From Candidatus Omnitrophota bacterium (GTDB taxonomy: Bacteria; Omnitrophota; Gorgyraeia; Gygaellales; Profunditerraquicolaceae), in the NCBI GenBank assembly GCA_003644385.1, contig QNCD01000002.1, positions 1 to 56,298 on the forward strand: DNA of 56,298 bases, read 5' to 3'. The notes under the pieces are model-generated. The model had not been told where the DNA came from and ran no database searches. It saw only the letters and a list, made by a program, of their open reading frames with translations. Positions 10,697 to 49,692 of this stretch are shown here, one piece after another (within the stretch, counting starts at the first letter, position 1; every line of letters starts with the position of its first letter). Both the position numbers and the translations under genes were made by a program.

Positions 10697-10730
10697 TTAT
10701 TTTAAATTTGTTTATTGGCAATGATATCAA

Positions 10731-29314: not shown

Positions 29315-29325
29315 TTTATCCTCCT

Positions 29326-30709: not shown

Positions 30710-31230
30710 TATTTAACTGCCATCAAAGTTGTAAATAAACCTTCGCCTTGAACAAAATTTTTCAATACTTCAAATCTGGCTTTAACTCCGTAAGCTTCTC
30801 TGTCTCTATTATCAGCTGAAGGCAGCCACCATGACCATAAATCTGGGTGAATTAATCTTTTGTGGTCAGGATGTGCATATGCATATTTAGATGTCCACAG
30901 AGGATTAATCATTTCTAATATGCCTTTTCTTTTCAGTACTCTCCAAATCTCCTCCATAACAAAAATCAAGTTGTTCACATGCTCCATAAAATGTGAAGCA
31001 AAAATAAAATCTATAGTACAATCTCCAAAAGGCAAACCATGTTTATCCACATCCCTAACAATATCAACTCCAGGATATTTATAATTATCAATTCCTATAA
31101 AACCAGGAGGAATTTGCCTTTTTCTATCTCCACAGCCAAGATCAACTTTCACACAATTTGGATTTGTTAATGGTAAAGCTATTGAATCACTACTTGTTAA
31201 TCTCAACTTAACTTGAATACTTTCAATCAT
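30709..31230 (-). CDS. class I SAM-dependent methyltransferase (paralogue of the MTase domains at 41..490 and 53631..54059)
   Basis: VDLGCGD, MEHV, WRVLKRKG and HPDHKR motifs are shared with the other two copies. Confidence 0.75.
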   Translation of the reverse strand: MIESIQVKLRLTSSDSIALPLTNPNCVKVDLGCGDRKRQIPPGFIGIDNYKYPGVDIVRDVDKHGLPFGDCTIDFIFASHFMEHVNNLIFVMEEIWRVLKRKGILEMINPLWTSKYAYAHPDHKRLIHPDLWSWWLPSADNRDREAYGVKARFEVLKNFVQGEGLFTTLMAVK

Positions 31231-32258: not shown

Positions 32259-33083
32259 CTATGCTCTCCTTTCATTCTTAACATATTCTCCAATACATTC
32301 TGGAATCACTTCCTCAATATTTCTTACTTTAAAGCCCGATTGTTCAAGTTTTTGAGTGGACAAAATCAGATTAGTCCTATTAAGTCCCAATTCCTCAAAG
32401 TCAATAACTTTATATTCAAACTCTGGGTGTGCTTTTTTGTAATATTCCATTAATTGTGGGTATCTTAGCCCACCTTTATTAACAACATTATATATTCCTC
32501 TTGCATCAATTGAAATCAAATGTTCTACAGCTTTTATAAAGTCAGGGATATATGTAATAGAATTTGGAATATCTATAACTTTTTTATATTTAATTAGCTT
32601 AGTCAGAAGATTATGTGAATGAACCTTTATATCCAGAGGAATTCTAATCCTGACGATTAAAATTGGGTAACTTTTAGCTAAAACTGATAATGCCCTTTCT
32701 GCATAGATTTTGGATCTTGAATAAAAAAGCTTGAAATAATCTGGCGGTAAATTCTCTGTGATCTCAGACCCATGATAATGATAAATACAACCACTGCTAA
32801 TATGAACCATTTTAATTCCTTTCCTAATAGCAATTTCAGCTAAAATAATAGGAATTGCCACATTAGCAAATATTGTTTTATCTTTATCCAGTTCACAGTC
32901 ATCAACATTATTAACTCCTGTATAACCTATACAATTGATTATAATTGATGGTGAATACTTTTGGATCTCATTCTCAGCATCCTCAAAAGTATAAATCTTA
33001 CGATCTGATATTTCACATTGTAACCCCTCCAAAAGCCTACCGCCTATAAATCCCTTACCGATTATTAGAATTTTTTGTTTCAT
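32259..33083 (-). CDS. RmlD-like NAD(P)-dependent sugar-nucleotide 4-reductase/epimerase
   Basis: ILIIGKGFIGGRL Rossmann motif, YSRSK catalytic YxxxK, and a size of 274 aa typical of the RmlD substrate-binding family. Confidence 0.55.
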   Translation of the reverse strand: MKQKILIIGKGFIGGRLLEGLQCEISDRKIYTFEDAENEIQKYSPSIIINCIGYTGVNNVDDCELDKDKTIFANVAIPIILAEIAIRKGIKMVHISSGCIYHYHGSEITENLPPDYFKLFYSRSKIYAERALSVLAKSYPILIVRIRIPLDIKVHSHNLLTKLIKYKKVIDIPNSITYIPDFIKAVEHLISIDARGIYNVVNKGGLRYPQLMEYYKKAHPEFEYKVIDFEELGLNRTNLILSTQKLEQSGFKVRNIEEVIPECIGEYVKNERRA

Positions 33084-33570
33084 TTTCTATAACCTTTGAT
33101 GCCTCCAATAAATTTGCAGCAATTGTTGGACTTAAAGGACTCTTAACCAAAATGCTCCTGCAGCCCAAAGTATCAGCAGCTACTAAATCAGACAGACTAT
33201 CTCCTATTACATATGATTCCTTAATATCTATATTCCAATCTCTAATAGCTTTCACAAACATACCCAATTTCGGCTTTCTGTCACTACTATAATCTGGACA
33301 GACATAAATCGCATCTATAGCTATTCCAAACTTTTCAAACCCTTTTTTCAAATGCTCATGAATAGCTTTTACTTCTTGATCCGTCACTTTTCCAAGACAT
33401 ATACCAGCTTGATTTGTAACAATAATTATCAGATAACCCAATTTCTTAAGTCTTTTCAGAGCACCAATAACTCCAGGGAGGACCTTAAAATCTTCAGCCT
33501 TATTAACATATTTTCCTGGCTCAACACGATTAATCACCCCATCTCTATCTAAAAATACTGCTTTATTCAT
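33055..33570 (-). CDS. gmhB: D-glycero-D-manno-heptose 1,7-bisphosphate phosphatase (HAD, GmhB-like)
   Basis: FLDRDGVIN (HAD motif I), IVTNQAG (motif II), RKPKLGM and GDSLSDL (motifs III/IV). Confidence 0.75.
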   Translation of the reverse strand: MNKAVFLDRDGVINRVEPGKYVNKAEDFKVLPGVIGALKRLKKLGYLIIIVTNQAGICLGKVTDQEVKAIHEHLKKGFEKFGIAIDAIYVCPDYSSDRKPKLGMFVKAIRDWNIDIKESYVIGDSLSDLVAADTLGCRSILVKSPLSPTIAANLLEASKVIENETKNSNNR

Positions 33571-33571
33571 T

Positions 33572-34108
33572 TTATTCTCTGTCCTTCAAATAATTTGAAA
33601 TTGCATGCGCTATGGCAAGATGTATATCTTCTACCATTTCATAGCTCTTTAAACCAATCCCTAAATACTTATCGCAATATTCAGCTACCTGTCCACTACC
33701 CGAAAAACCCAACAAAGCAAATACAGTCATTCCAATCTTTTTAGCAACTTTTGCTGCTTCAACCAAATTCTTCGAATTACCAGAAACTGAAATTATAACC
33801 AATATATCTTGGTCAGTACCAAACAATTTCAGCTGCTCTGAATAACTTTTTGAAAAATCTATATCATTTGACAAAGCTGTTACCAAGCCTGAATTGTCAA
33901 CCAGCGAGATAGCTCTAATACCACAGTTCTTCGCCAAGTCAGTAGCGAAATGGCTCGCAGTTTCAGCAGATCCACCATTCCCAACAATATATATTTTACC
34001 TTCACATATTTTCATATACTCAGCCATATAGCCAATATCATCTATATAATCAGCAATTGACTCCAAGAAATAAGCTGTCAAATGAGCAAAATAATCATCA
34101 ATTTTCAT
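33572..34108 (-). CDS. gmhA: phosphoheptose (sedoheptulose-7-phosphate) isomerase, SIS domain
   Basis: GNGGSAETASHFATDL, SNDIDF, ISVSGNSKN and EDIHLAIAH align with conserved GmhA blocks. Confidence 0.85.
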   Translation of the reverse strand: MKIDDYFAHLTAYFLESIADYIDDIGYMAEYMKICEGKIYIVGNGGSAETASHFATDLAKNCGIRAISLVDNSGLVTALSNDIDFSKSYSEQLKLFGTDQDILVIISVSGNSKNLVEAAKVAKKIGMTVFALLGFSGSGQVAEYCDKYLGIGLKSYEMVEDIHLAIAHAISNYLKDRE

Positions 34109-35034
34109 GTTATTCCCAAAACCTCCCTCTTAATCCATTCAGCTGTCAGTCTAATTGCCTCCTCTGGTGGTACTTTTGGATTATAACCCAGCACTCTTCT
34201 TGCTTTTTCATTGGAAAATAGCTCCCTCTGTCCAAACTCACCAGGTCTATAAGGCTTTTCAATAATTGGCACTCTTTTCCCGCAAGCTTTCATGCACAAC
34301 TCAGCTATATCTCTCACTTTCAGCTCTTGACCATAGCTAACCTGAAATTTTTCTCCGACCACTTTTTCCTTTGGTGCTTGAATAGCTAACTCCCAAGCGT
34401 CCAAAACATCATCAACATAAGTAGTATCTCTTGTTTGGTCGCCTCCTTCCAGAATTATTGGTTTATTTCTCAAAATATTATAAATCCATTTGAATACAAA
34501 AATTTCCCTTCTCATGCCAGGACCACAAATATATCCATTACTCATCACCACAATTGGAACCTTATAACTCCTATACCACGCCCAACAAGCCAACTCCTGT
34601 GCACATTTACTCCAGGAATAAGGATTGTGTGGCATTAAGGGATGATCTTCATCTATAGGTAAATACAATGGTCTACCCCATTCATTTCCACTGCCAGCAT
34701 ATATTAATTTCTCAATTTTGACTTTTCTGGCTGCTTCCAACAATGCCACTGTACCCATAGCATTTTCCCAAGCAGTCCAGACTGGAGAAGGAAAGCCCAT
34801 TGGCACATCCGCTTGTGCACAGAAGTGAACAACAATATCATGGCCTTCAATATCTTCAGGTTGAATATCATGAACAGCTTTCCACAAATAATTTAGTTTT
34901 GGATTATCAATATCTAAACCTGAATGCAAAGGAGCCACAATATCCAGAGCTGTTACTTCATAACCTTTTTTCAGCAGCCTCTTAGTTAACCCAGATCCAC
35001 CAAAACCAGCTGCTCCAGTAATTAGTACTTTCAA
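34105..35034 (-). CDS. NAD-dependent sugar-nucleotide epimerase/dehydratase (extended SDR)
   Basis: VLITGAAGFGGSGL Rossmann motif and YSWSK catalytic YxxxK. Embedded within the heptose pathway genes. Confidence 0.75.
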   Translation of the reverse strand: MKVLITGAAGFGGSGLTKRLLKKGYEVTALDIVAPLHSGLDIDNPKLNYLWKAVHDIQPEDIEGHDIVVHFCAQADVPMGFPSPVWTAWENAMGTVALLEAARKVKIEKLIYAGSGNEWGRPLYLPIDEDHPLMPHNPYSWSKCAQELACWAWYRSYKVPIVVMSNGYICGPGMRREIFVFKWIYNILRNKPIILEGGDQTRDTTYVDDVLDAWELAIQAPKEKVVGEKFQVSYGQELKVRDIAELCMKACGKRVPIIEKPYRPGEFGQRELFSNEKARRVLGYNPKVPPEEAIRLTAEWIKREVLGIT

Positions 35035-35045
35035 GGTATACCTCC

Positions 35046-36020
35046 TTAATTAACATAAATTATCCTTGAACCCTCGAAATCAAATCTGAAAGGCACTTCT
35101 ATTAACGGCCAAAGCGATTCTCTAACTTTTTGGCGATTATATTTTTCAACAAATAAAAGAAGAAAACCTCTGCCCCCAGCTCCGCACAGCTTACCACCTA
35201 ATGCTCCTGCCTTTTTCGCTGTTTCATAAATTGTATCAATATCTTCATTCGTGATTAATTTAGATAATTTCTTCTTCAGCTTCCATTCTTCATCTAACAG
35301 TAAACCAAAATCTGTAAGTTCTTTACCTTCTTCCAAACAATCTTTCATTTCATATGCCAATTCTCTCATCTCTTTCAAGACCAAATAGTTCTCTTTAAAA
35401 TTATAAGTAGAAATTACATCAGAAGCTTTTTTCCGCTTACTTATACCAGTATAAATTAACATCAGACTCTGATTTAATTCATCTTTAATCTCAAGTTCAC
35501 AAAGTATAGGCTTGATGTTTACCGCATCATTAGATTCAAATTCTATAAGGTTCAAGCCTCCATATGCTGCAGCATATTGGTCTTGTTTTCCTATATGCTC
35601 CTTAAGAATATCTATCTCTATTGCACAGGCTAACTCTGCCAATTCTGTTCTTGACAAATATTTACTTTTCAGTGCACACAAAGCATTCAGCAAGCCAACA
35701 GTAAAACTTGAAGAAGATCCTAAACCTGTCGCCTGAGGAATATCTGCAATCGAAGCTATATCAATACCACTCACATTGATTAGTTTTAAACATTCCCGAA
35801 TAATAGGGTGTTTAATTTGATTAACTTTTTCAACTTCTTCCACTTCAGAATAGGATGCTCTTATCCCACCATCAAATCTTCTATTTAGAAAAATATACAT
35901 ATAGCGATTGATAGTCGTAGAAATTACTGCTCCTGTCTCCAAACCATAAAAGTCCTTGATATCAGTACCGCCACCAGCAAAACTAATTCTAAATGGTGTT
36001 CTTGAGATTATCATTGGCAA
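35046..36020 (-). CDS. hddA: D-glycero-alpha-D-manno-heptose 7-phosphate kinase (GHMP kinase)
   Basis: SRTPFRISFAGGGTD, IKHPIIRE, PQATGLGSSSSFTVGLLNAL (GHMP motif II) and GKQDQYAAAYGGLN match HddA-type kinases. Confidence 0.85.
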   Translation of the reverse strand: MPMIISRTPFRISFAGGGTDIKDFYGLETGAVISTTINRYMYIFLNRRFDGGIRASYSEVEEVEKVNQIKHPIIRECLKLINVSGIDIASIADIPQATGLGSSSSFTVGLLNALCALKSKYLSRTELAELACAIEIDILKEHIGKQDQYAAAYGGLNLIEFESNDAVNIKPILCELEIKDELNQSLMLIYTGISKRKKASDVISTYNFKENYLVLKEMRELAYEMKDCLEEGKELTDFGLLLDEEWKLKKKLSKLITNEDIDTIYETAKKAGALGGKLCGAGGRGFLLLFVEKYNRQKVRESLWPLIEVPFRFDFEGSRIIYVN

Positions 36021-36047
36021 ATCTCCTAAATTTTTAATAACACATTT

Positions 36048-36725
36048 TTAAACCCCAACCATTTCTTTTTTAAATTTCTGCAGCCCAGAAAAAGTTCCAA
36101 TATCATAAAACCTATTCTTACTTACATATGTTTTTACTTGTCTTTCAGAGATTAACTTCGGTAATACTTCCTTTTCAAATGAAATAAAATATTTATCAGG
36201 AAATAAATTGAATATACCTTTATTCATTACCGAAACTCCTGCATCAATATAAACTGAGTCGAAACCTAATTTGCTATACTCAATTAAATCACCACGCTGA
36301 CCAATTTTACAATTTGCTTTTTCAGCTTCGCACACAACCATCATCATTAACCTATTGGATCTTTTAAATAACTTATATAACTCCAAATAATCAATATCTA
36401 AATAAGTGTCTCCATTAACTATAAAAAAATCCTCTCCCAATAGATTTTTAGCTAATTTCAGTGAACCACCAGTGCCTGCTGGAATAACTTCATGGCTATA
36501 TTCAATATTAACACCAAAAGCAGCTCCATCTCCAAAATATTTTTTTATCTGCCCACCTAAATAGCCAGTGCAAATAACTAAATTAGCGATCTTATTCTTT
36601 TTCAGCAGCCTAATCACATATTCCAAAAATGGGTATACACCTATCCTAATCATGGGCTTTGGCTCCAAATATGTCAAAGGTCTTAACCTTGTACCTTGCC
36701 CACCTGCCAAAATAACTGCTTGCAT
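36048..36725 (-). CDS. hddC: D-glycero-alpha-D-manno-heptose 1-phosphate guanylyltransferase-like nucleotidyltransferase
   Basis: MQAVILAGGQGTRLRPLT nucleotidyltransferase signature. At 225 aa it is a short single-domain form, adjacent to hddA. Confidence 0.75.
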   Translation of the reverse strand: MQAVILAGGQGTRLRPLTYLEPKPMIRIGVYPFLEYVIRLLKKNKIANLVICTGYLGGQIKKYFGDGAAFGVNIEYSHEVIPAGTGGSLKLAKNLLGEDFFIVNGDTYLDIDYLELYKLFKRSNRLMMMVVCEAEKANCKIGQRGDLIEYSKLGFDSVYIDAGVSVMNKGIFNLFPDKYFISFEKEVLPKLISERQVKTYVSKNRFYDIGTFSGLQKFKKEMVGV

Positions 36726-37571
36726 TCATCGCTCCTTTAACACTCCCCAGCTTCTCCCAACGTTAACTTTCCATTCATTAGGTTTCCTTGATTGCATCTT
36801 TAAATAATTTTTCTTAACTAACTCTGGCTGCCGAGCATATGAAGGTGGAGGTTCATGATATAGATGTATAGCAATTATCTCGTTCGTTCTAACTTCCTCA
36901 ATTCCATAATATCTCAGTCGAGTTAATAAATCAATATCATCATAGCCTCCAGCTCCTCCATCTAAAAATTCTTCATCATAACCACCAATCGCCAATAAGT
37001 GTCTCTTAAATATTATTGCTATGTGATGAGTACCTCCATTTGGGAAATAAGTAATTGTGTCCGGTGGTGAACAATAGCCTACATAATAATCATACACATT
37101 TGGCAATTTAGTTATTAAAATAGGATTTAACAATTGCTCTTCAGTCAACCGCCTTAAAGCTATTTCGTACACAGCATATAAAGGATTAGCAATTAATATC
37201 TTATTTTCATTCCCAGGTTTAGAAAAAAATTCTTTAGCAATCTTAACATCTGGTGTTGGATGAAGGATTTCTGGCTCTGTTAGCATAATTAAATCTCCAG
37301 TAGCTTTCTTAATACCACAATTCATCCCATGAACACAAATAGTCCAACCTGGATTGTTATTATAATAATATTTCAAATTTACTTCAGGATGTTCTTTCAT
37401 AAAATTCTCAATAATTCTACCAGTACCATCTACAGAGCCATCATCGATGAAAATAATCTCATCAGGTGGCACTTGTTGGTTAACCAAACTCAATAAACTC
37501 CACCTAATAAGCCCACCTCTGTTATAAGAAGACATTACAGCCGATAATTTCACGTCCTTATTACTCCCCAT
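36726..37571 (-). CDS. family 2 glycosyltransferase
   Basis: SAVMSSYNRGGL ... IIFIDDGSVDGT ... TEPE. Paralogue of 37550..38347. Confidence 0.8.
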   Translation of the reverse strand: MGSNKDVKLSAVMSSYNRGGLIRWSLLSLVNQQVPPDEIIFIDDGSVDGTGRIIENFMKEHPEVNLKYYYNNNPGWTICVHGMNCGIKKATGDLIMLTEPEILHPTPDVKIAKEFFSKPGNENKILIANPLYAVYEIALRRLTEEQLLNPILITKLPNVYDYYVGYCSPPDTITYFPNGGTHHIAIIFKRHLLAIGGYDEEFLDGGAGGYDDIDLLTRLRYYGIEEVRTNEIIAIHLYHEPPPSYARQPELVKKNYLKMQSRKPNEWKVNVGRSWGVLKER

Positions 37572-38347
37572 TCTTTACCTTTATTTGCTATTATTGGCTT
37601 GTTAGGATCTTCGTGTAAGGTCTTATTGTAATTCCATTTTTCAAGACATCCTGTATAACCATGAGCTAAATGAACCACTTTTATACTTTCATCAGGAATA
37701 CACCTGACGCCAAATCTGCTTAATCTTGATTGCAAATCAATATCATCCCACCCCCAATGAGGCAAAAATCTCTCATCAAAACCACCAATTGCCATCAGCC
37801 ACTCTTTTCTCACTGATGCACAATAGCAAGCTGAAACTCTTCTTGATACAGCAATATCTTCATACTGAGGGATATAACCTTCTCTCCATTCAACCACTTC
37901 TTTTATTTTTGTAATTAATTCGGGATTTCTAAAATGTTCAAGACTTAAAATCCTAATAATCCCAGCAAACACAAAATAAACCGTCCCTGCTGACACAAAT
38001 AATTTAAGCTCTTTTTCGTGCCAATCCACATGCTGTTTAATAGTATTGCCTATATGTAACACTTCTGGCTCTGTAAAAATAATCAGCTCTCCTTTAGCTT
38101 GTTTAATCCCGATGTTTTTTGCCAAACAGCAATTTGTATATCCTGGATTATTGTTATAAATATATCTAATATTATGATTAGGATATTCACTCTGAAATGT
38201 TTTTACTAAGTCAGCCGTATAATCCTGACTACCATCATCAACTATAATTACCTCATCAGGTTTATAATCTTGATTCAACAATGTATATAAACCCCTATTT
38301 AGATGTCCTGCTCTATTATAAGTTGTTATTATTACTGATACTTTCAC
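37550..38347 (-). CDS. family 2 glycosyltransferase
   Basis: VSVIITTYNRAGHL ... VIIVDDGSQD ... TEPE. Paralogue of 36726..37571. Confidence 0.8.
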   Translation of the reverse strand: MKVSVIITTYNRAGHLNRGLYTLLNQDYKPDEVIIVDDGSQDYTADLVKTFQSEYPNHNIRYIYNNNPGYTNCCLAKNIGIKQAKGELIIFTEPEVLHIGNTIKQHVDWHEKELKLFVSAGTVYFVFAGIIRILSLEHFRNPELITKIKEVVEWREGYIPQYEDIAVSRRVSACYCASVRKEWLMAIGGFDERFLPHWGWDDIDLQSRLSRFGVRCIPDESIKVVHLAHGYTGCLEKWNYNKTLHEDPNKPIIANKGKEWGVIRT

Positions 38348-38637
38348 CTTTTCTTTTTCTGATGTTTCTGAAATTTAACAAATTCTTCTGCAAGAGTTGC
38401 CAGTTTATCTAATTTTTCACTAATAGTGGCAAGTTTAGAATTTATATTCAACGATCTATCTTCCTTTGGTTTTGGCCAAACAAATAATACGGATTCCAAA
38501 ACATAATCCTCTTTTTTTTCTACAATCTTCTTTAACTCTTCTACTGCTGTATCAAAGTCCTTGATATAATATTCTTCTGATTTATTCCATCCTTTAATAA
38601 CTACCTTTATCATCTTTGCTGGGTCAATTAATGCCAT
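38344..38637 (-). CDS. hypothetical protein inside the glycosyltransferase block
   Basis: 97-aa co-directional ORF with a 4-nt overlap with the downstream gene. No motif recognised. Confidence 0.45.
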   Translation of the reverse strand: MALIDPAKMIKVVIKGWNKSEEYYIKDFDTAVEELKKIVEKKEDYVLESVLFVWPKPKEDRSLNINSKLATISEKLDKLATLAEEFVKFQKHQKKKR

Positions 38638-39465
38638 TTAATGCCTCCTTTTATGTTTGTTATCTATATATTTTATATTTTTCTTCAAACTTTCTATGTT
38701 TGCTTCTTGATTTCTTTCATGCCAAATATGCCAACCCATCACCTCATCTGTAAAAATGAACTCATATCCAAGTTCGTCAATCGTTTGACCTAAATCATTG
38801 TCCTCTCCCCCATGCCCAACGATATTTTCATCAAAACCTCCTGCTTGCAAGAACGCATCTTTAGGTATTAAAACATTACCACCAAATAAAGCACCACCAG
38901 ATCCTGAAACTGGTCTCCTTGATGGATTGTCTCTATACCTTTTATCTCTTTCAAATAACGACTGTCTTATATCAGCACCAATTAATTCACCCTTAGGAAT
39001 ATATTGAACATTTACCCTATTGCTTACCACCAAATCAAACCTAAATAATATATCCTCCAAAGTAAGTTTCATTGGTAATAAAAAATCATATCTACCACAA
39101 ATAACACAATTCGGAAATTGTGTGTGTAGCTTATGGTAAGTAGCCAACCAATTATCTCTAACGATAATATCAGAATCCATAAATATTATTGCATCAGAAT
39201 TTTCGTCCATCAATTCAACACCTCTATTACGAGCTTGACCTGCTCTAAACCCTTTATCTGGTTGCCAAAAATATTTAATATTAAAATCAAGATTAGCAAA
39301 TTTCTGCACAATAGAAAGAATGTTATCCTGAGAGCCATCATCACATACAATCACCTCAAACTTATCATGCCTAAACTTCTGCTTAAATATACAAGTCAAA
39401 CAGCACTCCAATCCGAACATTCTATTATATACTGGTATCACAATGGAGTATTCAATCAACACCAA
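38638..39465 (-). CDS. family 2 glycosyltransferase with galactosyltransferase-like C-terminal region
   Basis: SIVIPVYNR ... VIVCDDGSQD ... MDSD ... GHGGEDNDLG. Paralogue of 39452..40369. Confidence 0.8.
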   Translation of the reverse strand: MVLIEYSIVIPVYNRMFGLECCLTCIFKQKFRHDKFEVIVCDDGSQDNILSIVQKFANLDFNIKYFWQPDKGFRAGQARNRGVELMDENSDAIIFMDSDIIVRDNWLATYHKLHTQFPNCVICGRYDFLLPMKLTLEDILFRFDLVVSNRVNVQYIPKGELIGADIRQSLFERDKRYRDNPSRRPVSGSGGALFGGNVLIPKDAFLQAGGFDENIVGHGGEDNDLGQTIDELGYEFIFTDEVMGWHIWHERNQEANIESLKKNIKYIDNKHKRRH

Positions 39466-40369
39466 GCTCCTTTCTTTTTTCAGAAGAAATAAATGTCCCT
39501 TTGTCGCAGTAAATCATGTTTTTCTCTGGCTCCGCAATAATTCCATATTTAATGTGCAAATCTCGATACTTATTTTCTATGTACTTAATGTTCTTTTTAA
39601 CATCCTGCTCATTCTGAGCTTGATTCCTCGGATGCCAGATATGCCAGCCGATCACGTCTTCTGAAAACAATGCTTTTGCTCCTCTTCTGAACAACTCCCA
39701 TCCTAAACAGCAATCTTCTCCTCCGTGTCCTTTTATATTCGCATCAAAACCTCCTGCTTCCAAAAAAAGCTTTTTAGGGATTAGCAAATTACCCCCAAAC
39801 ATCCCCAAAGCAAAAGGTTTACCTGTAACTGGCGATAAACTACTCGGCTCTTTCCAAAATTTTGTCTTTTCATCTTGCCACCTTGGGTCAATTCCTGGTA
39901 GTGGACCAGCAGAGATAGGAGCTACTTGTGGAAACTGATTACTTACTACTTTATCAAATTGATTTGCAACTAATTCTTCAGTTATATTCATAGGCATCAA
40001 CCAATCATATCTGCCACAAATTATTGTCTCAGGATATAAACTGTGTAACTTATCATAGGCTTTCAAAGCATTAGGATTAAGAATCACATCTGAATCCACG
40101 AATATCAGAGCTTCTCCAATAGCAATTTTGCTTGCCAGATTTTTTGCTGGACCTGGATTACCTGTTTTGCCTATTCTCCATAGATACTTTATATTCATTA
40201 TAGTTGAATACTTCTGAGCTATCTTCACAGCAGGGTCTGTACCTTCATCGCTAATAATGACTTCCCAAAATTCTGTAGGGAAGGTTTGTTTTGCTAAAGC
40301 CATTAAACAACATGATAAATTCTGATGTCTATTATAGGTAGGAATTATAATAGAAAATTTAATTGACAT
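39452..40369 (-). CDS. family 2 glycosyltransferase with galactosyltransferase-like C-terminal region
   Basis: SIIIPTYNR ... VDSD ... GHGGEDCCLG ... KKNIKYIENKY. Paralogue of 38638..39465. Confidence 0.8.
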   Translation of the reverse strand: MSIKFSIIIPTYNRHQNLSCCLMALAKQTFPTEFWEVIISDEGTDPAVKIAQKYSTIMNIKYLWRIGKTGNPGPAKNLASKIAIGEALIFVDSDVILNPNALKAYDKLHSLYPETIICGRYDWLMPMNITEELVANQFDKVVSNQFPQVAPISAGPLPGIDPRWQDEKTKFWKEPSSLSPVTGKPFALGMFGGNLLIPKKLFLEAGGFDANIKGHGGEDCCLGWELFRRGAKALFSEDVIGWHIWHPRNQAQNEQDVKKNIKYIENKYRDLHIKYGIIAEPEKNMIYCDKGTFISSEKRKELGVD

Positions 40370-40384
40370 ATTTTACTCCTTATA

Positions 40385-42049
40385 TCAATCTGCGATATAA
40401 CTGACGCCATAAGGGCCGTCAAGAAAACAACTTGGTTTAAAACATTTATCACTCAAAGCCTCATAACCTACCAAACACCACTCTTTAGTCCTACCCCAAA
40501 CTCTTGGTATATCTTTTAAGTGAGCCAATGGCTCTCTTTCGTGACAAATTGAAACCATTAAATCAGTATTAACCACAAGCGATTTCCTATAAGCTTCGCA
40601 AGGTTTATGAACACCTTCCCTCAAAAAATGAGGCAGAGCAAAAACAAATTTGTCAAATGATTTCATGTAGTCAGGAGCACTGTTCATTATCTTTTCAAAT
40701 TTATCAATCTTCTCGCTCGTCCACTTACCCAATACTTTACCGCCAAAATAACTTCCACTTACCCCTGCTCTTATACAGAAAGTAATTCCTAATTTCTGGA
40801 CCAAATCAATTAAATATGGCAACTCATCAACTGTATCTGGATATACAGTAATACTAATTCCACATTTCCTTGGCCAAATAGTATTCACAATTCTGACAGT
40901 CTCAACCGCTTGCTGAAAAGTTCCCTTAACTCCTCTCAGCTCATCATGAACCTCTTCACTACCATCTATAGAAACCCTTACAACAAAATTGCCTCTTAAA
41001 TTATTAGCAATTGTTTCCCAAATTTTTCTCTGATTTTCAGGTAGAGTTCCATTCGTAATTATACCAATTTCAGCACCTTTCCATCTATCTGCACAGATAG
41101 CAATTAAATCTACAATTTTATGGAATAAGGTTGGCTCTCCCCCAAAAATTGCAATATTATTTATATTATTAAAAAATTCATGTGAGATCCACTTCTGAAA
41201 TTCATGTATATTAATTTCTTCTTCCGATTGTTTTTTCCATATATCACAATGCTTACACATTAAATTACACCTCCAAGTAGCAGCGACAGCCATCCAAAAT
41301 GGAGTAATAACATCCAATCTTCTATGATGAATCCATTTATCCTTAAACAAAGTCTTATTCTCAGCTTCATGTAGAAATCTACCTTCAGAAGCAAAACGAT
41401 GATGCAGTATTACAGCTTCTGCACAATAATAAATTCTAAAGCCTGCTTCCCTTGCCCTTAAACAAAAATCTACATCTTCCCAACCATTAATAAATTCTTC
41501 ACAGAAACCACCAAGCCTTTCAAATACATCTTTTTTCACCAGCATACAAGCCGCAGTCACAGCCTCAGCTTCTCTGCTTTTATTACAACTATAATCATCT
41601 GCCGGTCTTCCCTGACCATACTCATAAGGATATCCAGAAGCTGCCATGAACTTAATTCCTGCATGCTGTATATATTTACCATCAATTGTCAGCAATTTGG
41701 CACCAACTATTGGAGATCTGAAATAATTATCCTCAGCTATTTTCAGCATATATTCCAAAAATCCCTTTTGTGGCTCTGTATCATTATTAAGAAATAGTAC
41801 ATATTCAGCTTCTAAACTCTTAGCACCTCTATTACAGCTTTTAGCAAAACCAACATTTGCTTCATTCCTAACATAATTAATTCCTGAATGTCTTTCTGCC
41901 CATTTATCAGTGCCATCTATAGAGCCATCATCTACCAAAGTTAATTTCCAATTTATCTTATTCGATATATTCTCTTTTAAACATCTCCATAAAGGATCTA
42001 AAAACTTCTTGCCATTATAAGTTGGCACAACAATATTTACTTTATACAT
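40385..42049 (-). CDS. family 2 glycosyltransferase fused to a radical SAM domain
   Basis: N-terminal VNIVVPTYNG ... LVDDGSIDGT ... NNDT ... GWEDVDFC (GT-A). C-terminal half has CNLMCKHC (CxxxCxxC, nt 41246-41269), IFGGEPTL and ITNGTL radical SAM motifs, plus C-terminal cysteines. Confidence 0.8.
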   Translation of the reverse strand: MYKVNIVVPTYNGKKFLDPLWRCLKENISNKINWKLTLVDDGSIDGTDKWAERHSGINYVRNEANVGFAKSCNRGAKSLEAEYVLFLNNDTEPQKGFLEYMLKIAEDNYFRSPIVGAKLLTIDGKYIQHAGIKFMAASGYPYEYGQGRPADDYSCNKSREAEAVTAACMLVKKDVFERLGGFCEEFINGWEDVDFCLRAREAGFRIYYCAEAVILHHRFASEGRFLHEAENKTLFKDKWIHHRRLDVITPFWMAVAATWRCNLMCKHCDIWKKQSEEEINIHEFQKWISHEFFNNINNIAIFGGEPTLFHKIVDLIAICADRWKGAEIGIITNGTLPENQRKIWETIANNLRGNFVVRVSIDGSEEVHDELRGVKGTFQQAVETVRIVNTIWPRKCGISITVYPDTVDELPYLIDLVQKLGITFCIRAGVSGSYFGGKVLGKWTSEKIDKFEKIMNSAPDYMKSFDKFVFALPHFLREGVHKPCEAYRKSLVVNTDLMVSICHEREPLAHLKDIPRVWGRTKEWCLVGYEALSDKCFKPSCFLDGPYGVSYIAD

Positions 42050-42666
42050 ATAACAGCCTCCAACTGTGCTCTTCTCTTATTTCCAGAAGCAAAAGCATTA
42101 TCCTGCAATTTAAATTCAATAATTTCTTTATCAGCAAATACTTCTCTAAATATCTTCCTCCACCAATTGATATTATAACAACTCACATGTGTAGGATCTT
42201 GTGGTTCATTAGGAAAATGTTTAGCTATACTTCCATAATTCTTATCAAATACTGTAATACCATGATATATATATTTATCACTCACTCTCCTACACTCAAT
42301 CAGACACCTTAATATCTCTTCAGATTTTAAGTGTTCCAAAAAATCCCAAGAAAATACTAAATCAAAATAACAATCCTCAAATATCCCCAGCTCAGTTGCA
42401 TCTCCTTGCATAATATATTTTTTCATTTCAGGATGACAATTAGCTACAGCATATTCAGATATATCAACCCCATATGCCTCAACTCCAATCATTCTCATCG
42501 CTTGAACCAAAAAACCTTTTGCACATCCTAATTCTAAAAATTTGAATATCTTAAATCTTCTTATTAATTGTTTAGCTATCTCAATATAACCATCATGCCA
42601 ATAATACAAACCATAGCCCTTCCTATTATCATATTTAGGATCTTTATAAGCTCTGGGATCTCGCAT
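42037..42666 (-). CDS. class I SAM-dependent methyltransferase
   Basis: Motif I LELGCAKGFLV, acidic loop GVDIS, and FSWDFLEHL. The true N terminus is uncertain (see the finding at 42681..42755). Confidence 0.75.
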   Translation of the reverse strand: MRDPRAYKDPKYDNRKGYGLYYWHDGYIEIAKQLIRRFKIFKFLELGCAKGFLVQAMRMIGVEAYGVDISEYAVANCHPEMKKYIMQGDATELGIFEDCYFDLVFSWDFLEHLKSEEILRCLIECRRVSDKYIYHGITVFDKNYGSIAKHFPNEPQDPTHVSCYNINWWRKIFREVFADKEIIEFKLQDNAFASGNKRRAQLEAVICIK

Positions 42667-42777
42667 TCCATCAAAATAGTTTATATCAATCCAATTAGAT
42701 AAATCCTCAGGTCTCTCTCTGCTCTTTCTGGATTACCTGGAATGAATACTGGCATAAACTACTCCTTTTTATGAATT

Positions 42778-43317
42778 TTATGAATTACTATTTATAAATT
42801 TTTTAGTTTTATCTTTTAAAACTTCCCAATATCCATCAATCATGCTTCTAAATTTCCTTACTATATCCTCTTCTGTTTCTCCACCCAGAGGTGTAATATT
42901 ACCTAATTCAATATCAGCAACAACTAATTCAGAACCCGCATCAGGATTGCCACTATTATCAAAACCTTTATAGATCTGAATTCCATGTTTATTACCAACC
43001 TTAGAAGACAGAATCACTCTCCTCACAAGCTCTGGTAGCTCTCTTTGCTGAGAATAAGTCTGACAATAAACTCCAATAGTAAAATTAAATCTCGCTAATC
43101 TTGATTCTGTGCCTTCATAATCAGGCTGAACATTCACATCATGTTCTTCTAAGTAAGAATGAATAAGAATGAAAGGTAATGCTAAATCTGAAAGATTTAA
43201 ATCAGGATGACTGATATAAATTCTATCATCAAAATCACTTTCCAAATCTGCTGAGCTTCTTAAGAAGTATACCAAACTATTATAAAAAGCTTCTCCAAGG
43301 TTATTGACTAAAGACAT
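42778..43317 (-). CDS. hypothetical structural protein (possible tail terminator/neck protein) stranded between sugar genes
   Basis: 179 aa with no enzyme motif. The ALPFILIHSY... layout is faintly reminiscent of DUF3168-type tail-completion proteins. Expected position between the gp10-like protein and the tube. Confidence 0.3.
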   Translation of the reverse strand: MSLVNNLGEAFYNSLVYFLRSSADLESDFDDRIYISHPDLNLSDLALPFILIHSYLEEHDVNVQPDYEGTESRLARFNFTIGVYCQTYSQQRELPELVRRVILSSKVGNKHGIQIYKGFDNSGNPDAGSELVVADIELGNITPLGGETEEDIVRKFRSMIDGYWEVLKDKTKKFINSNS

Positions 43318-44056
43318 CTTTAATTCCCTGTTTTTTACTATTGTTTAATCTTATTTTTCTTTCATAAAAATGCTGACTACTCTTAAAAAGGGAAATAAAA
43401 GTCCCCGCATCGCTCCAGAATCCATCAAGTATTCTATATGTTAAACGGTGATGAACAAGGTAGTACCGATTAGTATCAGTAATTTCTAACTCTCCTCTAT
43501 CTGAATATTCTTGGCTTCTAATTACATCAAAAACTTCACAATCATATAGATAGAAACCTGTTACCGCTAAGTCACTGATAAACTTCTTAGGTTTTTCAAT
43601 AATCCTCATTACTTTGCTATCTCTAATTTCAGCTACTCCAAATCTCTGGGGATCGCTAACTTTCTTCAGAAAAATCTTAGCCCCTCCAGTAAAATCAAGA
43701 ACATCAGACTTGAAATCCTCTTCAAAAATATTATCTCCCAAAATTACTGCAACATTATCATTCTGAACAAAACCTTCAGCTAACAATAGTGCCTCAGCAA
43801 TTCCTCCCGCTTGGTCTTGGACTTTATAAGTAAACTCTACTCCAAAGTCTTTTCCGCTTCCCAAAGTCTGGATAACTGCTCCCATATGTTCCCTGCCAGT
43901 AACAATCAGAATTTCTCTAATCCCTGAATTAATTAAAGTTTCCAGAGGATAGAATATCATTGGTTTATTGAACACTGGTAGAAGATGTTTATTCGTTACC
44001 TTAGTGCAAGGATAAAGCCTCGTTCCTTTACCACCTGCAAGCAATACTCCTTTCAT
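43301..44056 (-). CDS. rmlA: glucose-1-phosphate thymidylyltransferase-like sugar nucleotidyltransferase
   Basis: MKGVLLAGGKGTRLYPCT, ILGDNIF, EKPK and GFWSDAGT blocks of RmlA-type enzymes (short form). Confidence 0.8.
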   Translation of the reverse strand: MKGVLLAGGKGTRLYPCTKVTNKHLLPVFNKPMIFYPLETLINSGIREILIVTGREHMGAVIQTLGSGKDFGVEFTYKVQDQAGGIAEALLLAEGFVQNDNVAVILGDNIFEEDFKSDVLDFTGGAKIFLKKVSDPQRFGVAEIRDSKVMRIIEKPKKFISDLAVTGFYLYDCEVFDVIRSQEYSDRGELEITDTNRYYLVHHRLTYRILDGFWSDAGTFISLFKSSQHFYERKIRLNNSKKQGIKDVFSQ

Positions 44057-45051
44057 TTATCATCCTCTCTAAGTTTTAATTTCTTCCACCACCACTCATT
44101 ATTAATATACCAATTAATGGTTTTATTCAAATTTGTTTCTAAATTATCTTTTATTTCAAAACCTAATTCAGTAATTTTTTTACAATCAACTGCATATCTC
44201 CTATCATGCCCAGGTCTATCAGGAACAAATTCTATAAAGTACTCATAGTCAAGCGCCATATTCTCAATTATAAACTTGATTAATTCATAGTTAGTCACAT
44301 CATCATATAAAGAGCCTATATTATATATTTCTCCAAATTTCCCTTCGTGAAGAAGAAGGTCTATAGCTTTACAATTATCTTCTACAAATATCCAGTTTCG
44401 TATTTGGTCTCCTTTCCCATAGATAGGCACTTTTTTATTTTCGAGTAAATTTGTTATTGCGAGAGGAATTAGCTTCTCAGGATACTGATAAGGTCCAAAG
44501 TTATTAGTACTCCTGCTGATAATATATTTAAGTCCATAAGTTCTTCCGTAAGCTTGTACTAACAAATCCGCTCCTGCTTTACTTGCTGAATAAGGAGAAG
44601 AAGGCTTTAAAAGGGAATTTTCGTCCGCAAACCCATCAAGCACTTCTCCATATACTTCATCTGTACTAATCTGAAAAAACTTACAATCATGCTGAACTGC
44701 ATAGTCAAGAAGTTTCTGCACTCCTAAATAATTGCTTTTTATAAAAGGGGAAGAATCTCTTATACTTCTGTCAACATGACTTTCAGCAGCAAAGTTGACT
44801 ATCCAATCAGGAGGATCCAAAGGGAAATCCTGGATATCACATATGTCCATTTTAATAAAAATATAATTAGGATTATTTTCAATATCCTTCAAATTATCAG
44901 GATTGCCTGAGTAGGTGAGTTTATCTAAATTGTAAACTTTATAGGTAGGATAGCTTTTAAGAATATGACGGATAAAATTAGACCCAATAAACCCACATCC
45001 CCCAGTAATTAATAATTTTACACTCAAATCTACCTCCTTTTCAATTACCAC
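44053..45051 (-). CDS. rmlB: dTDP-glucose 4,6-dehydratase
   Basis: LLITGGCGFIGSNFIRHIL, NLDKLTYSGN, STDEVYG, YSASKAGADLLV and GHDRRYA match conserved RmlB blocks. Confidence 0.85.
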   Translation of the reverse strand: MVIEKEVDLSVKLLITGGCGFIGSNFIRHILKSYPTYKVYNLDKLTYSGNPDNLKDIENNPNYIFIKMDICDIQDFPLDPPDWIVNFAAESHVDRSIRDSSPFIKSNYLGVQKLLDYAVQHDCKFFQISTDEVYGEVLDGFADENSLLKPSSPYSASKAGADLLVQAYGRTYGLKYIISRSTNNFGPYQYPEKLIPLAITNLLENKKVPIYGKGDQIRNWIFVEDNCKAIDLLLHEGKFGEIYNIGSLYDDVTNYELIKFIIENMALDYEYFIEFVPDRPGHDRRYAVDCKKITELGFEIKDNLETNLNKTINWYINNEWWWKKLKLREDDK

Positions 45052-45309: not shown

Positions 45310-45714
45310 TTACATCACCCCTTTTTTCCAAAAATCTCCCAATATTTTGGTCAATAAATTGGCTGCTTCTTTTTTCATTGGCTCTTTCACACTCTTAACA
45401 CCTTTGTGAATAAAATGGCTCTTAGTTTTGTGTTCAAATTCTTGTTTAGCAGCATATGGCAAAGCCGAACCAACTAAATATGTTAACTTATCTACTTTCT
45501 GACCTGTCACAGCAGGATAAACCCTATTTCTATAATCTACAGAAGCAGCCAAACTTTTTTGCAGAGTACCATACCTGACTGGGCACAAAGGCTTAGCATT
45601 TTCCGCAGCTTCAACTGCATATCTCTTGACAACTCTATCTAAAGCTTCTGTTATAGCATCATCACTTTTACCAACATTTTCAGCCTTGTCCCAATTAAAC
45701 ATTTCTGCTGGCAT
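45310..45714 (-). CDS. HK97 gp10-like head-tail joining / tail completion protein
   Basis: AENAKPLCPVRYGTLQKSL resembles the gp10-family A..aP..tG.Lr.S motif. Located in the connector block. Confidence 0.5.
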   Translation of the reverse strand: MPAEMFNWDKAENVGKSDDAITEALDRVVKRYAVEAAENAKPLCPVRYGTLQKSLAASVDYRNRVYPAVTGQKVDKLTYLVGSALPYAAKQEFEHKTKSHFIHKGVKSVKEPMKKEAANLLTKILGDFWKKGVM

Positions 45715-49657: not shown

Positions 49658-49692
49658 TTTATTAAATCACCTCCATCGCTTTCAAGCTTAAA

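What the first reader, a model, noticed from the sequence alone, without database searches (positions are those of the whole stretch)
40385..42049. Single polypeptide fusing a GT2 glycosyltransferase to a radical SAM domain
Seen: residues 1-~250 are a typical GT-A enzyme (VVPTYNG, LVDDGSIDGT, FLNNDT, GWEDVDFC). Residues ~255-554 start with CNLMCKHC (nt 41246-41269), followed by IFGGEPTL and IITNGTL, with further C-terminal cysteines (CEAYRK, SICHE, CFKPSC). This is the third radical SAM domain in the window. Established: radical SAM enzymes perform C-methylation, dehydrogenation, epimerisation, deoxygenation and C-C bond formation on sugars in antibiotic and glycan pathways. Inference: physically coupling radical chemistry to glycosyl transfer suggests an unusual sugar (branched, C-methylated or epimerised after transfer) in the product of the island. 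Three oxygen-labile enzymes also argue for an anaerobic or microaerophilic host.
Basis: partly seen in the sequence, partly recalled or inferred. Interest (0 to 1): 0.65.

Follow-up and report, generated by a model that had tools for sequence, protein, structure and literature searches.

The report
Phage glycosyltransferase fused to radical SAM
A sediment phage encodes one protein that joins a sugar-transferring enzyme to a radical SAM enzyme, inside a large sugar-building gene block between its head and tail genes; the fusion is real, conserved, rare and uncharacterised, and probably makes an unusual sugar for a phage-built glycan.

Summary
ORF 40385-42049 lies on the minus strand and encodes 554 aa: an N-terminal GT2/GT-A domain (res 1-240), a short linker, and a radical SAM domain (res 251-554). 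The rSAM domain has CNLMCKHC, GGE and four further invariant cysteines, consistent with one twitch-type auxiliary cluster. It is not a frameshift artefact. Fourteen homologues (58-95% identity) share the architecture, two independent assemblies show no indels, and dN/dS is about 0.1 in every segment. The window is a tailed phage. The gene sits in a 17-kb glycan island (RmlA/RmlB, heptose pathway, seven other GTs, methyltransferases) between the neck and major-tail-protein genes. More distant phages encode the same GT2 and rSAM as two overlapping genes, or fuse the rSAM to a different GT. This fusion/fission pattern ties the rSAM functionally to glycosyl transfer. The fusion is absent from 185,579 species' genomes and present on 2 of 2.9 million viral contigs. 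No curated family cut-off is met, and the held literature does not describe it. The most likely function is radical C-H chemistry (epimerisation, oxidation or decarboxylation) on the sugar handled by the GT domain. C-methylation is unlikely because there is no cobalamin domain. The glycan's target is not established: virion protein is favoured, and DNA or the host envelope are not excluded.

The parts
40385..42049 (-). GT2-radical SAM fusion gene, 554 aa, ATG start, stop codon at 40385-40387
42057..42061 (-). GGAGG ribosome-binding site, 7-nt spacer before the ATG; the start overlaps the end of the upstream methyltransferase ORF by 13 nt
   Evidence: (sequence read directly)
41330..42049 (-). 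GT2 / GT-A glycosyltransferase domain (res 1-240). Invariant D41 (nt 41927-41929), N88-N89-D90 as a DXD-equivalent (41780-41788) and W190-E191-D192 (41474-41482)
41300..41329 (-). Interdomain linker (res 241-250), low model confidence. Standalone rSAM relatives begin just after it
40760..41299 (-). Radical SAM core, a partial TIM barrel (res 251-430). Contains C261-x3-C265-x2-C268 at 41246-41269 and G303-G304-E305 at 41135-41143
40388..40759 (-). C-terminal twitch-like auxiliary-cluster region (res 431-554). Four family-invariant Cys: C484 (40598-40600), C502 (40544-40546), C536 (40442-40444), C541 (40427-40429). C525 is conserved only in the fusion clade
42037..42666 (-). Class I SAM methyltransferase directly upstream; present in 4 of 6 related contexts
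42778..43317 (-). Conserved ~180-aa protein of unknown function, always between RmlA and the fusion in relatives. No Pfam, PHROG or PDB match
43301..44056 (-). Glucose-1-phosphate thymidylyltransferase-like (RmlA/RfbA-like), below the curated cut-off
44053..45051 (-). dTDP-glucose 4,6-dehydratase (RmlB), above the curated equivalog cut-off
39452..40369 (-). GT2 immediately downstream of the fusion, conserved in relatives
28211..39465 (-). Rest of the glycan island: three more GT2s (36726-39465), HddC-like, HddA-like, SDR, GmhA-like, GmhB-like, RmlD-like, SDR, methyltransferase, GT2, methyltransferase, CgeB-type GT1-like
45310..45714 (-). Neck1/tail-completion gene: upstream boundary of the island
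27781..28179 (-). Major tail protein-like gene: downstream boundary of the island. Followed by the tail assembly chaperone (27073-27453) and the tape measure protein (22968-26834)

Best explanation
The gene encodes a bifunctional, soluble glycan-assembly enzyme of a tailed phage. The N-terminal GT2 (GT-A) domain transfers a sugar from a nucleotide sugar to a growing glycan. The donor is most plausibly a dTDP-6-deoxyhexose derived from the always-adjacent RmlA/RmlB pair. The C-terminal domain is a radical SAM enzyme with one twitch-type auxiliary [4Fe-4S] cluster. It cleaves SAM reductively and uses the 5'-deoxyadenosyl radical to abstract a hydrogen from the same sugar, either on the nucleotide donor or just after transfer. 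The likely outcome is an epimerisation, oxidation or decarboxylation that ordinary sugar enzymes cannot do. The island has no lipid-carrier initiating transferase, flippase or polymerase, and it lies between neck and tail-tube genes. The glycan is therefore probably built stepwise in the cytoplasm on a phage product, most likely virion proteins. Shown: the architecture, the motifs, purifying selection, phage context, the fusion/fission linkage of GT2 and rSAM, and rarity. Inferred: carbohydrate as the rSAM substrate, the donor sugar, the type of radical reaction, and the glycan's target.
For: Both domains exceed Pfam cut-offs. The catalytic residues of both halves are invariant in 14 homologues, and four C-terminal Cys are invariant even in 25-40% identical standalone relatives. 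dN/dS against a 95%-identical relative is 0.10 (GT), 0.06 (rSAM core) and 0.12 (C-terminal region). Fusion/fission evidence: L114 has a GT2 (39% identical to the GT half) and an rSAM (39% identical to the rSAM half) as two genes overlapping in ATGA. L113 has the same pair separated by one ORF. L115/L116 have an (Anp1+GT2) gene overlapping the rSAM gene, and L006 has that pair fused into a 796-aa protein. The core synteny RmlB-RmlA-180aa-(MTase)-fusion-GT2 holds in all six contexts with enough flank. RmlB passes the equivalog cut-off. The rSAM domain model (pLDDT 90) matches twitch/SPASM enzymes, including sugar- or nucleotide-acting BlsE (TM 0.71), viperins, AbmM, MoaA and BtrN. BlsE modifies a sugar already attached by a glycosyltransferase (PMC3715490). 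The domain and its standalone relatives are only 300-330 aa and have no peptide-recognition domain. None of the island's GTs has a convincing transmembrane segment. The structural-module location is shown.
Against: No biochemical datum exists for any member. The nearest solved structures by E-value include peptide maturases (SkfB, SuiB, anSME) as well as sugar enzymes, so fold does not fix the substrate class. RmlA and the heptose enzymes fall below the curated cut-offs. No Ser/Thr-rich tails like those of glycosylated mycobacteriophage proteins are evident in the capsid or tail proteins. Only 56 kb of an estimated 85-100 kb genome is visible, so pathway genes elsewhere are unseen. GT2 genes of the same subfamily also occur in viral contigs without an rSAM within 10 kb.
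Confidence: 0.45

Rival explanations
1. The rSAM domain acts on the protein acceptor rather than on a sugar, in the manner of SkfB, anSME or SuiB. It would prepare or cross-link the residue that the GT2 domain then glycosylates, or create a non-canonical sugar-protein link.
For: The best sequence match in the PDB is the peptide maturase SkfB (E 1e-10). SkfB, SuiB, anSME and CteB rank high in the fold search. NCBIfam hits are dominated by SPASM peptide maturases, all far below cut-off. The GT half resembles polypeptide GalNAc-transferases in fold.
Against: There is no RiPP-recognition or other peptide-binding domain. The domain is 300 aa, shorter than the peptide maturases it matches. No small precursor-peptide gene is conserved next to it. 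The conserved partners are always GTs and sugar-nucleotide enzymes. The full SPASM seven-Cys motif is absent.
Confidence: 0.15
2. The island, including the fusion, glycosylates phage DNA (hypermodified bases carrying glycans) to evade restriction, not virion proteins.
For: Phage GT clusters that attach mono- to trisaccharides, including heptose, to 5hmC are documented, some in neighbourhoods with structural genes (bioRxiv 10.1101/2023.12.21.572611). rSAM enzymes take part in thymidine hypermodification (PMC8989533, listed). The window has a weak 'nucleotide modification associated domain' match at 38-796 and a dUTPase/NT5C fusion at 1626-2549.
Against: No C5-cytosine methyltransferase, TET/5mYOX or hydroxymethylase was found in the 56-kb window. 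The island sits in the late structural operon rather than with the replication genes. Eight GT domains plus two sugar-nucleotide pathways exceed any DNA glycan described.
Confidence: 0.1
3. The island remodels a host envelope glycan (LPS, capsule, S-layer or teichoic acid) during infection or lysogeny, and the fusion is one of its tailoring enzymes.
For: The GT half's nearest relatives are bacterial multi-GT2 polysaccharide enzymes. Fold neighbours include the teichoic-acid enzymes TarS and RmlT. Relatives carry sugar ABC-transporter components in the same island.
Against: The island has no initiating phosphoglycosyltransferase, flippase, polymerase or exporter, and no convincing membrane segments. 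The position between neck and tail-tube genes is conserved. No integrase or repressor is seen in the window.
Confidence: 0.15
4. The fusion is an assembly or sequencing artefact, or a decaying pseudogene in which one half is inactive.
For: None beyond prior caution about metagenomic contigs.
Against: Fourteen homologues have the same length and architecture. There are no indels in two independent assemblies. dN/dS is about 0.1 in every segment. All catalytic motifs are invariant. In one relative an intein is maintained in the GT catalytic motif.
Confidence: 0.01

Closest known systems
BlsE (cytosylglucuronic acid decarboxylase, blasticidin S pathway; PDB 7vob)
   Same: It is a radical SAM enzyme of about 330 aa that performs radical chemistry on a sugar already attached by a glycosyltransferase (PMC3715490). 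It gives the best end-to-end structural match to the rSAM half (TM 0.68-0.71). It shares the CxxxCxxC and GGEP motifs.
   Different: Sequence similarity is marginal (E 2e-5, 16% identity). BlsE is a standalone enzyme of an actinomycete antibiotic pathway. UDP-glucuronate synthesis is not a conserved partner here. Whether BlsE has the four-Cys auxiliary site was not checked.
Twitch-domain carbohydrate rSAM enzymes (BtrN dehydrogenase, PDB 4m7t; NeoN/HygY-type epimerases)
   Same: They combine a short rSAM core with a C-terminal domain holding one auxiliary [4Fe-4S] cluster on four Cys, and they act on sugars or aminocyclitols. The C-x17-C spacing of the first two auxiliary Cys matches what I recall for BtrN (own knowledge, not tested).
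   Different: BtrN ranks only 44th in the fold search (TM 0.46-0.56). There is no detectable specific sequence relationship. None of these enzymes is fused to a GT.
SkfB / SuiB / anSME (SPASM-twitch peptide-modifying rSAM enzymes)
   Same: They give the best sequence (SkfB, E 1e-10) and fold E-values, and share the same core and auxiliary-cluster region.
   Different: They carry peptide-binding N-terminal domains and/or a full SPASM domain with two auxiliary clusters, and they act on peptides. The curated family cut-offs are missed by a wide margin (e.g. SkfB model 50 bits against 300).
Mycobacteriophage virion glycosylation (Che8, Rita; Freeman et al. 2023, as cited in PMC11256854)
   Same: Phage-encoded GTs build glycans on capsid and tail proteins in the cytoplasm.
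   Different: Those phages have two to a few GTs near the right genome end, and no sugar-nucleotide pathways or rSAM. Here there are eight GT domains, RmlA/B, a heptose pathway, methyltransferases and an rSAM, all inside the structural operon. Virion glycosylation is not demonstrated here.
Chlorovirus PBCV-1 A064R (multidomain capsid-glycan enzyme: two GT domains plus a methyltransferase)
   Same: It is a virus-encoded single polypeptide that couples glycosyl transfer with tailoring of the transferred 6-deoxyhexose (own knowledge).
   Different: The tailoring domain is a class I methyltransferase, not an rSAM. It comes from a eukaryotic virus. No sequence relationship was tested.
GT2 + 2x rSAM/SPASM proteins of Candidatus Omnitrophota (about 1130-1250 aa; P0142, P0138, P0158 etc.)
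   Same: An N-terminal GT2 is fused to SPASM-clade rSAM modules. This shows that GT2-rSAM coupling recurs independently.
   Different: They are cellular, carry two rSAM modules each with a full SPASM domain, are only 26-33% identical over the rSAM core, and are uncharacterised ('radical SAM protein').

Membership tests
Radical SAM superfamily (PF04055) | CxxxCxxC motif ligating the SAM-binding [4Fe-4S] cluster | tested here: met
   C261/C265/C268 are invariant in 14 fusion homologues and in the standalone relatives that retain the N-terminus
Radical SAM superfamily (PF04055) | Profile score above the curated cut-off, and a GGE SAM-binding motif | tested here: met
   65.4 bits against a cut-off of 29.5; G303-G304-E305 invariant
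Radical SAM superfamily (PF04055) | Partial TIM-barrel fold | tested here: met
   AF2 model with pLDDT 90.1 and alternating beta/alpha elements; Foldseek probability 1.0 to many rSAM structures
Radical SAM superfamily (PF04055) | Fe-S cluster binding and reductive SAM cleavage | not testable with these tools
   Needs anaerobic biochemistry
SPASM subfamily (PF13186 / TIGR04085) | Seven-Cys motif CX9-15GX4C...CX2CX5CX3C...C binding two auxiliary clusters | tested here: not met
   No PF13186 hit. Only four family-invariant C-terminal Cys, in the pattern C-x17-C-x33-C-x4-C
Twitch-type rSAM (truncated SPASM, one auxiliary cluster) | A C-terminal domain after the barrel with a beta-hairpin and enough Cys for one auxiliary [4Fe-4S] cluster | tested here: met
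   Four invariant Cys (C484, C502, C536, C541). The model has strands at 246-249 and 254-256 of the half (fusion residues 490-493 and 498-500) between the first two Cys. This holds in silico only: the convergence of the Cys in 3D could not be checked because no coordinates were available
Class B (cobalamin-dependent) rSAM methylases | N-terminal cobalamin-binding domain | tested here: not met
   No B12-binding domain in Pfam or NCBIfam scans; the N-terminus is a GT2 domain
Glycosyltransferase family 2 (GT-A fold, PF00535) | Profile score above the cut-off and a GT-A fold | tested here: met
   76.5 bits against 23.3; Foldseek matches to ppGalNAc-Ts, K4CP, TarS and RmlT at E about 1e-13
Glycosyltransferase family 2 (GT-A fold, PF00535) | DXD-type metal/nucleotide-binding motif and a catalytic acidic residue | tested here: inconclusive
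   The motif is N88-N/Q89-D90 (only D90 is acidic and invariant). D41 and W190-E191-D192 are invariant. An intein in P0013 and in L113 sits right after the WED motif. Activity was not tested
BlsE family | Specific sequence relationship to BlsE | tested here: not met
   phmmer E 2e-5 covering the core only; 16% identity in the structural alignment
Mycofactocin system (MftF GT2 TIGR03965 / MftC rSAM TIGR03962) | Scores above the equivalog cut-offs | tested here: not met
   75.5 against 280 and 45.7 against 265
SkfB, PqqE, NirJ/Ahb and PTO1314 rSAM families | Scores above the curated cut-offs | tested here: not met
   50 against 300, 46 against 381, 65 against 515 and 72 against 306
Phage virion glycosylation systems | Phage-encoded GTs, with glycans shown on virion proteins | not testable with these tools
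   The GT genes and the structural-module position are shown. The glycan on virions needs mass spectrometry or glycostaining
Phage DNA glycan hypermodification clusters (C5-MT + 5mYOX + GT) | A GT adjacent to a cytosine C5-methyltransferase and a TET-like dioxygenase, or to a hydroxymethylase | tested here: not met
   None was found in the window. The rest of the genome is not visible

The most novel reading that the evidence does not exclude
This is the first radical-SAM-tailored glycan made by a virus. The fused twitch rSAM domain would perform a so-far undescribed radical reaction on a 6-deoxyhexose or heptose while the sugar is held by its own GT domain, for example epimerisation at an unactivated carbon, ring contraction/decarboxylation, or formation of a C-C or C-S link between sugar and protein. 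The result would be a virion-surface sugar that no known cellular pathway makes.
Probability: 0.15. Interest if true: 0.8.

Novelty: new variant of a known kind. Interest (0 to 1): 0.55.

Why it matters
Radical SAM sugar chemistry is known almost entirely from antibiotic pathways. Phage-made glycans are known from only a few systems that use plain glycosyltransferases. This family links the two. Its fusion/fission pattern identifies which transferase the radical enzyme works with, and that is usually the hardest thing to learn about an orphan rSAM. The family therefore gives a compact, testable entry point: one 554-aa protein plus RmlA/RmlB. It could reveal new carbohydrate radical chemistry, and it could show what large glycan islands inside phage structural operons are for. 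The family is rare and phage-restricted, so any chemistry found would probably be new.

Tried and rejected
1. Megablast of 10 kb around the gene against 50,697 phage records gave no match. tblastn of the fusion found only half-length hits, and tblastn of the capsid protein found none, so no cultured relative or host could be named.
2. The search for homologous proteins with the rSAM half alone returned only one fragment, because the word index missed the distant relatives. The exhaustive representative search and a profile search were needed instead.
3. The profile A2 was too divergent for the genome-contig scan; A1 was used instead.
4. Model coordinates are not exposed, so I could not test whether the four Cys converge or how the two domains pack. 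The pTM of 0.55 for the full model means the relative domain orientation is not reliable.
5. Candidate acceptor proteins were scanned for Ser/Thr-rich tails. Nothing convincing was found.
6. The conserved 180-aa neighbour has no match in Pfam, PHROGs or the PDB.
7. Four literature searches for a described GT2-rSAM fusion, or for rSAM in phage glycosylation, found nothing relevant. The SPASM/twitch review and the Freeman 2023 paper are not held.
8. C-methylation was considered and set aside because there is no cobalamin domain. Membership in the mycofactocin-like MftF/MftC pairing or the arsenosugar GT/rSAM pairing was rejected on the scores.
9. dN/dS against relatives below 75% identity is saturated and was not used.
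Full report
OBSERVATION. The ORF is real but lies on the minus strand: 40385-42049, ATG start, 554 aa. The plus-strand reading is full of stops, and the other two frames of the coding strand contain 39 and 83 stops. CNLMCKHC maps to nt 41246-41269, exactly as stated. Pfam places Glycos_transf_2 at residues 6-111 (76.5 bits, cut-off 23.3; the related Glyco_tranf_2_3 model extends to residue 217). It places Radical_SAM at residues 260-416 (65.4 bits, cut-off 29.5). A GGAGG ribosome-binding site sits 7 nt upstream of the ATG.

NOT AN ARTEFACT. A search of 5.8 billion protein clusters found 14 full-length homologues (58-95% identity, 551-557 aa), all with both domains. They come from JGI, ENA, NCBI and Logan assemblies. 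In their alignment the following residues are invariant:
- GT half: D41, N88, D90 and W190-E191-D192.
- rSAM core: C261/C265/C268 and G303-G304-E305.
- C-terminal region: C484, C502, C525, C536 and C541.
Nei-Gojobori dN/dS against the 95%-identical relative (L117) is 0.098 for the GT domain, 0.062 for the rSAM core and 0.116 for the C-terminal region. An independent assembly of the source run covers 40300-42150 with 0 differences and 0 gaps at depth 12. Contigs of a variant in a second sample cross the domain junction (41098-41502) with substitutions only.

WHAT THE WINDOW IS. All ORFs of 120 aa or more that have any annotation lie on the minus strand, and GC is a uniform 0.31-0.40. The window encodes these phage functions:
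- tape measure protein (22968-26834; phrog_1533, E 1e-102)
- tail assembly chaperone (27073-27453)
- major-tail-protein-like gene (27781-28179)
- Neck1/tail completion protein (45310-45714)
- capsid-like and decoration-like proteins (48704-50160)
- head protease-like protein (50195-51814)
- DnaB, a UvsW-like helicase, a primase and a ligase
It is a tailed phage. Its sequence comes from a sediment metagenome, with a relative in a hydrothermal-vent metagenome. No cultured relative was found.

THE ISLAND. Between the neck gene and the major tail gene lies a 17-kb block (28211-45051). In transcription order it contains:
- RmlB (TIGR01181, 413 bits against a cut-off of 365)
- an RmlA-like gene
- a 179-aa unknown
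- a class I methyltransferase
- the fusion
- four GT2s
- HddC-, HddA-, GmhA- and GmhB-like heptose genes with three SDRs
- two methyltransferases, another GT2 and a CgeB-type GT1-like protein
No initiating phosphoglycosyltransferase, flippase, polymerase or exporter is present. No GT has a convincing membrane segment.

CONSERVED CONTEXT. Six related contigs keep the order capsid, connectors, RmlB, RmlA, ~180-aa unknown, (methyltransferase), fusion, GT2. L118 (67% identity) has essentially the whole island of the window, including the heptose genes. L001 and L003 replace the distal part with other cargo: an ABC-transporter binding protein and permeases, UDP-glucose dehydrogenase, MptE-like proteins and homing endonucleases. 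The RmlA/RmlB-fusion-GT2 core is therefore the stable unit.

THE rSAM HALF IS A RARE SUBFAMILY TIED TO GT2. An exhaustive search of 1.84 billion representatives with residues 245-554 gave only 13 hits at E <= 1e-30. Among them are standalone proteins of 301-328 aa that align end to end at 31-41% identity. A profile search found about 22 strong members and then a drop to generic SPASM enzymes. The only source name is the generic 'MoaA/NifB/PqqE/SkfB family'. Across this wider family four C-terminal cysteines are invariant (C484, C502, C536, C541; pattern C-x17-C-x33-C-x4-C), and the standalone proteins start exactly where the fusion's linker ends.

The standalone members sit in these contexts:
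- L114: GT1, then GT2, then rSAM. The GT2 is 39% identical to the fusion's GT half over residues 4-240, the rSAM is 39% identical to the rSAM half, and the two genes overlap in ATGA.
- L113: dehydratase, then a GT2 that is 39.6% identical up to residue 192 and is then interrupted by an intein, then a 148-aa gene, then an rSAM (39% identical), a second rSAM, a GT2 and a methyltransferase.
- L115/L116: an (Anp1-like + GT2) gene overlapping the rSAM gene by 14 nt.
- L006: that same pair fused into a 796-aa protein placed directly after the portal and head genes of an unrelated phage.
So the same GT2-rSAM pair exists both split and fused, and the rSAM has also been joined to a different GT. This is a Rosetta-stone pattern. 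It argues that the two activities act in one pathway and probably in one complex.

HOW COMMON. The full fusion is on 2 of 2.9 million IMG/VR contigs and on none of the top matches in one genome for each of 185,579 species. There, every hit covers only residues ~3-245, although one search pattern was rSAM-specific. GT2 fused to SPASM-clade rSAM modules does occur elsewhere. Ten of the 148 nearest rSAM representatives carry a GT2-like domain, notably ~1130-1250-aa proteins of Candidatus Omnitrophota with two rSAM/SPASM modules, annotated only as 'radical SAM protein'. The general idea of a GT2-rSAM fusion is therefore not unique, but this family is distinct, phage-restricted and uncharacterised. 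Four full-text searches found no description of such a fusion.

STRUCTURE. The full-length model (pLDDT 79.6, pTM 0.55) has two well-folded domains and a disordered linker at 242-249. The GT half matches GT-A enzymes: ppGalNAc-T2, K4CP, TarS and the dTDP-rhamnose-using RmlT. By sequence it is only generically related to solved GT2s. The rSAM half, modelled with a deeper alignment, is confident (pLDDT 90.1, pTM 0.89). It matches SkfB (E 1.4e-13), BlsE (1.8e-13, TM 0.71 over nearly its whole length), SuiB and anSME, then viperins, AbmM, PqqE, MoaA, EpeE and BtrN. This is the SPASM/twitch clade, which contains both peptide-acting and sugar- or nucleotide-acting enzymes. Fold alone does not fix the substrate. 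No SPASM Pfam hit and only four conserved auxiliary Cys point to a twitch-type single auxiliary cluster. All curated NCBIfam families are missed by wide margins.

MECHANISM PROPOSED. I consider it most likely (about 0.45) that the rSAM domain acts on carbohydrate: the sugar that its own GT domain transfers, either as the nucleotide donor or just after transfer. The reasons are as follows.
- The invariant partners are GTs and RmlA/RmlB, never a precursor peptide.
- The domain is small (about 300 aa) and lacks a peptide-recognition domain, like BlsE and BtrN and unlike the peptide maturases it resembles.
- BlsE sets a precedent for radical modification of a sugar after a glycosyltransferase step (PMC3715490).
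- A fully Cys-ligated auxiliary cluster is what redox-active twitch enzymes such as BtrN use (own knowledge).
Epimerisation, oxidation to a keto sugar, or decarboxylation are the candidate reactions, and the data do not choose among them. The donor being a dTDP-6-deoxyhexose is inferred from synteny only.

The glycan's target is also inferred. Cytoplasmic stepwise assembly is suggested by the absence of lipid-carrier machinery. Virion proteins are favoured by the position in the late structural operon and by the mycobacteriophage precedent. However, no Ser/Thr-rich acceptor tails were seen. DNA glycosylation and host-envelope remodelling remain open. No C5-MT, TET or hydroxymethylase gene was found in the window, but the genome is incomplete.

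ON THE ANAEROBE INFERENCE. Counting rSAM genes is weak evidence, because rSAM enzymes are common in phages of aerobic hosts (own knowledge; see also the many phage rSAM models). The sediment and vent origin, and the Desulfobacterota, Syntrophobacterales and archaeal affinities of the nearest GT2 relatives, make an anoxic host plausible on independent grounds.

VERDICT. This is a genuine, conserved, rare, phage-restricted bifunctional enzyme. It is a new variant within two known kinds of system: twitch-type carbohydrate rSAM enzymes and phage glycan islands. Its chemistry and target are unknown. Interest 0.55.

Noticed in passing
L004 7580-10276 (P0013) and L113 4691-6580: A LAGLIDADG-type intein (Ser1 ... 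VAHN|S) interrupts the GT domain immediately after the invariant W-E-D motif in one fusion homologue. The split-form GT2 in L113 appears to be interrupted at the same position (its alignment to the GT half stops at residue 192). Inteins in glycosyltransferases are unusual, and the site marks the motif as essential.
   Followed up: partly
window 14599-15924 and 15899-17230 (minus strand): Two tandem, overlapping radical SAM ORFs (441 and 443 aa, CxxxCxxC at C46 and C15, many C-terminal Cys) lie downstream of the tail genes. They resemble SPASM peptide maturases (PapB, GrrM), far below the cut-offs. No function is assigned and no precursor peptide was looked for.
   Followed up: partly
window 51855-54665 (minus strand): A 936-aa ORF in the head module combines a class I methyltransferase domain (residues ~200-300) with an ATP-dependent DNA ligase adenylation domain (residues 398-586). 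This is an odd fusion in an odd place.
   Followed up: no
L001 13437-16379; L003 17920-20860: Relatives carry a sugar-type ABC transporter substrate-binding protein and two permeases inside the phage glycan island. This may be for importing a sugar during infection. No ATPase gene was seen next to them.
   Followed up: no
window 31227-36725 (minus strand); L118 15765-21435: A complete-looking nucleotide-heptose pathway (GmhA-, GmhB-, HddA- and HddC-like genes plus three SDR dehydratase/epimerase/reductase genes, suggesting a modified or 6-deoxy-heptose) is encoded by a phage. All genes fall below the NCBIfam equivalog cut-offs.
   Followed up: partly
window 42778-43317 (minus strand): A ~180-aa protein with no detectable homology to anything annotated is conserved between RmlA and the fusion in every related contig (179-182 aa). 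It could be a structural protein, a carrier or acceptor, or a new sugar enzyme.
   Followed up: partly
L119 (IMGVR_UViG_3300033156_001123) 10001-11662 vs window 40385-42049: Mosaic divergence: the GT half is 86% identical to the window protein, but the rSAM half is only 64% identical. In L117 the values are 91% and 97%. This suggests recombination at or near the domain boundary.
   Followed up: no
window 38-796 and 1626-2549 (minus strand): A weak 'nucleotide modification associated domain 1' (DUF1599) plus methyltransferase ORF, and a dUTPase_2 + NT5C 5'-nucleotidase fusion, lie in the replication module. These are possible hints of nucleotide-pool or DNA modification.
   Followed up: no
P0142, P0138, P0143, P0151, P0158, P0252 (not in window): Candidatus Omnitrophota MAGs encode ~1130-1250-aa proteins with an N-terminal GT2 and two rSAM/SPASM modules. 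They are annotated only as 'radical SAM protein' and form an independent, uncharacterised GT2-rSAM architecture.
   Followed up: partly
L003 4031-4804, 8211-9080, 11674-12276, 12898-13734; L117 7617-8453; L118 7248-7880: NUMOD3/HNH homing endonuclease genes are unusually dense within and around the glycan islands of relatives. This may drive the observed cargo turnover.
   Followed up: no
window 28211-29314 (minus strand): The last gene of the island is a Glyco_trans_1_2 + DUF3880 protein. From memory, this is the architecture of the Bacillus spore-surface glycosylation protein CgeB, i.e. a protein-surface glycosylation context.
   Followed up: no
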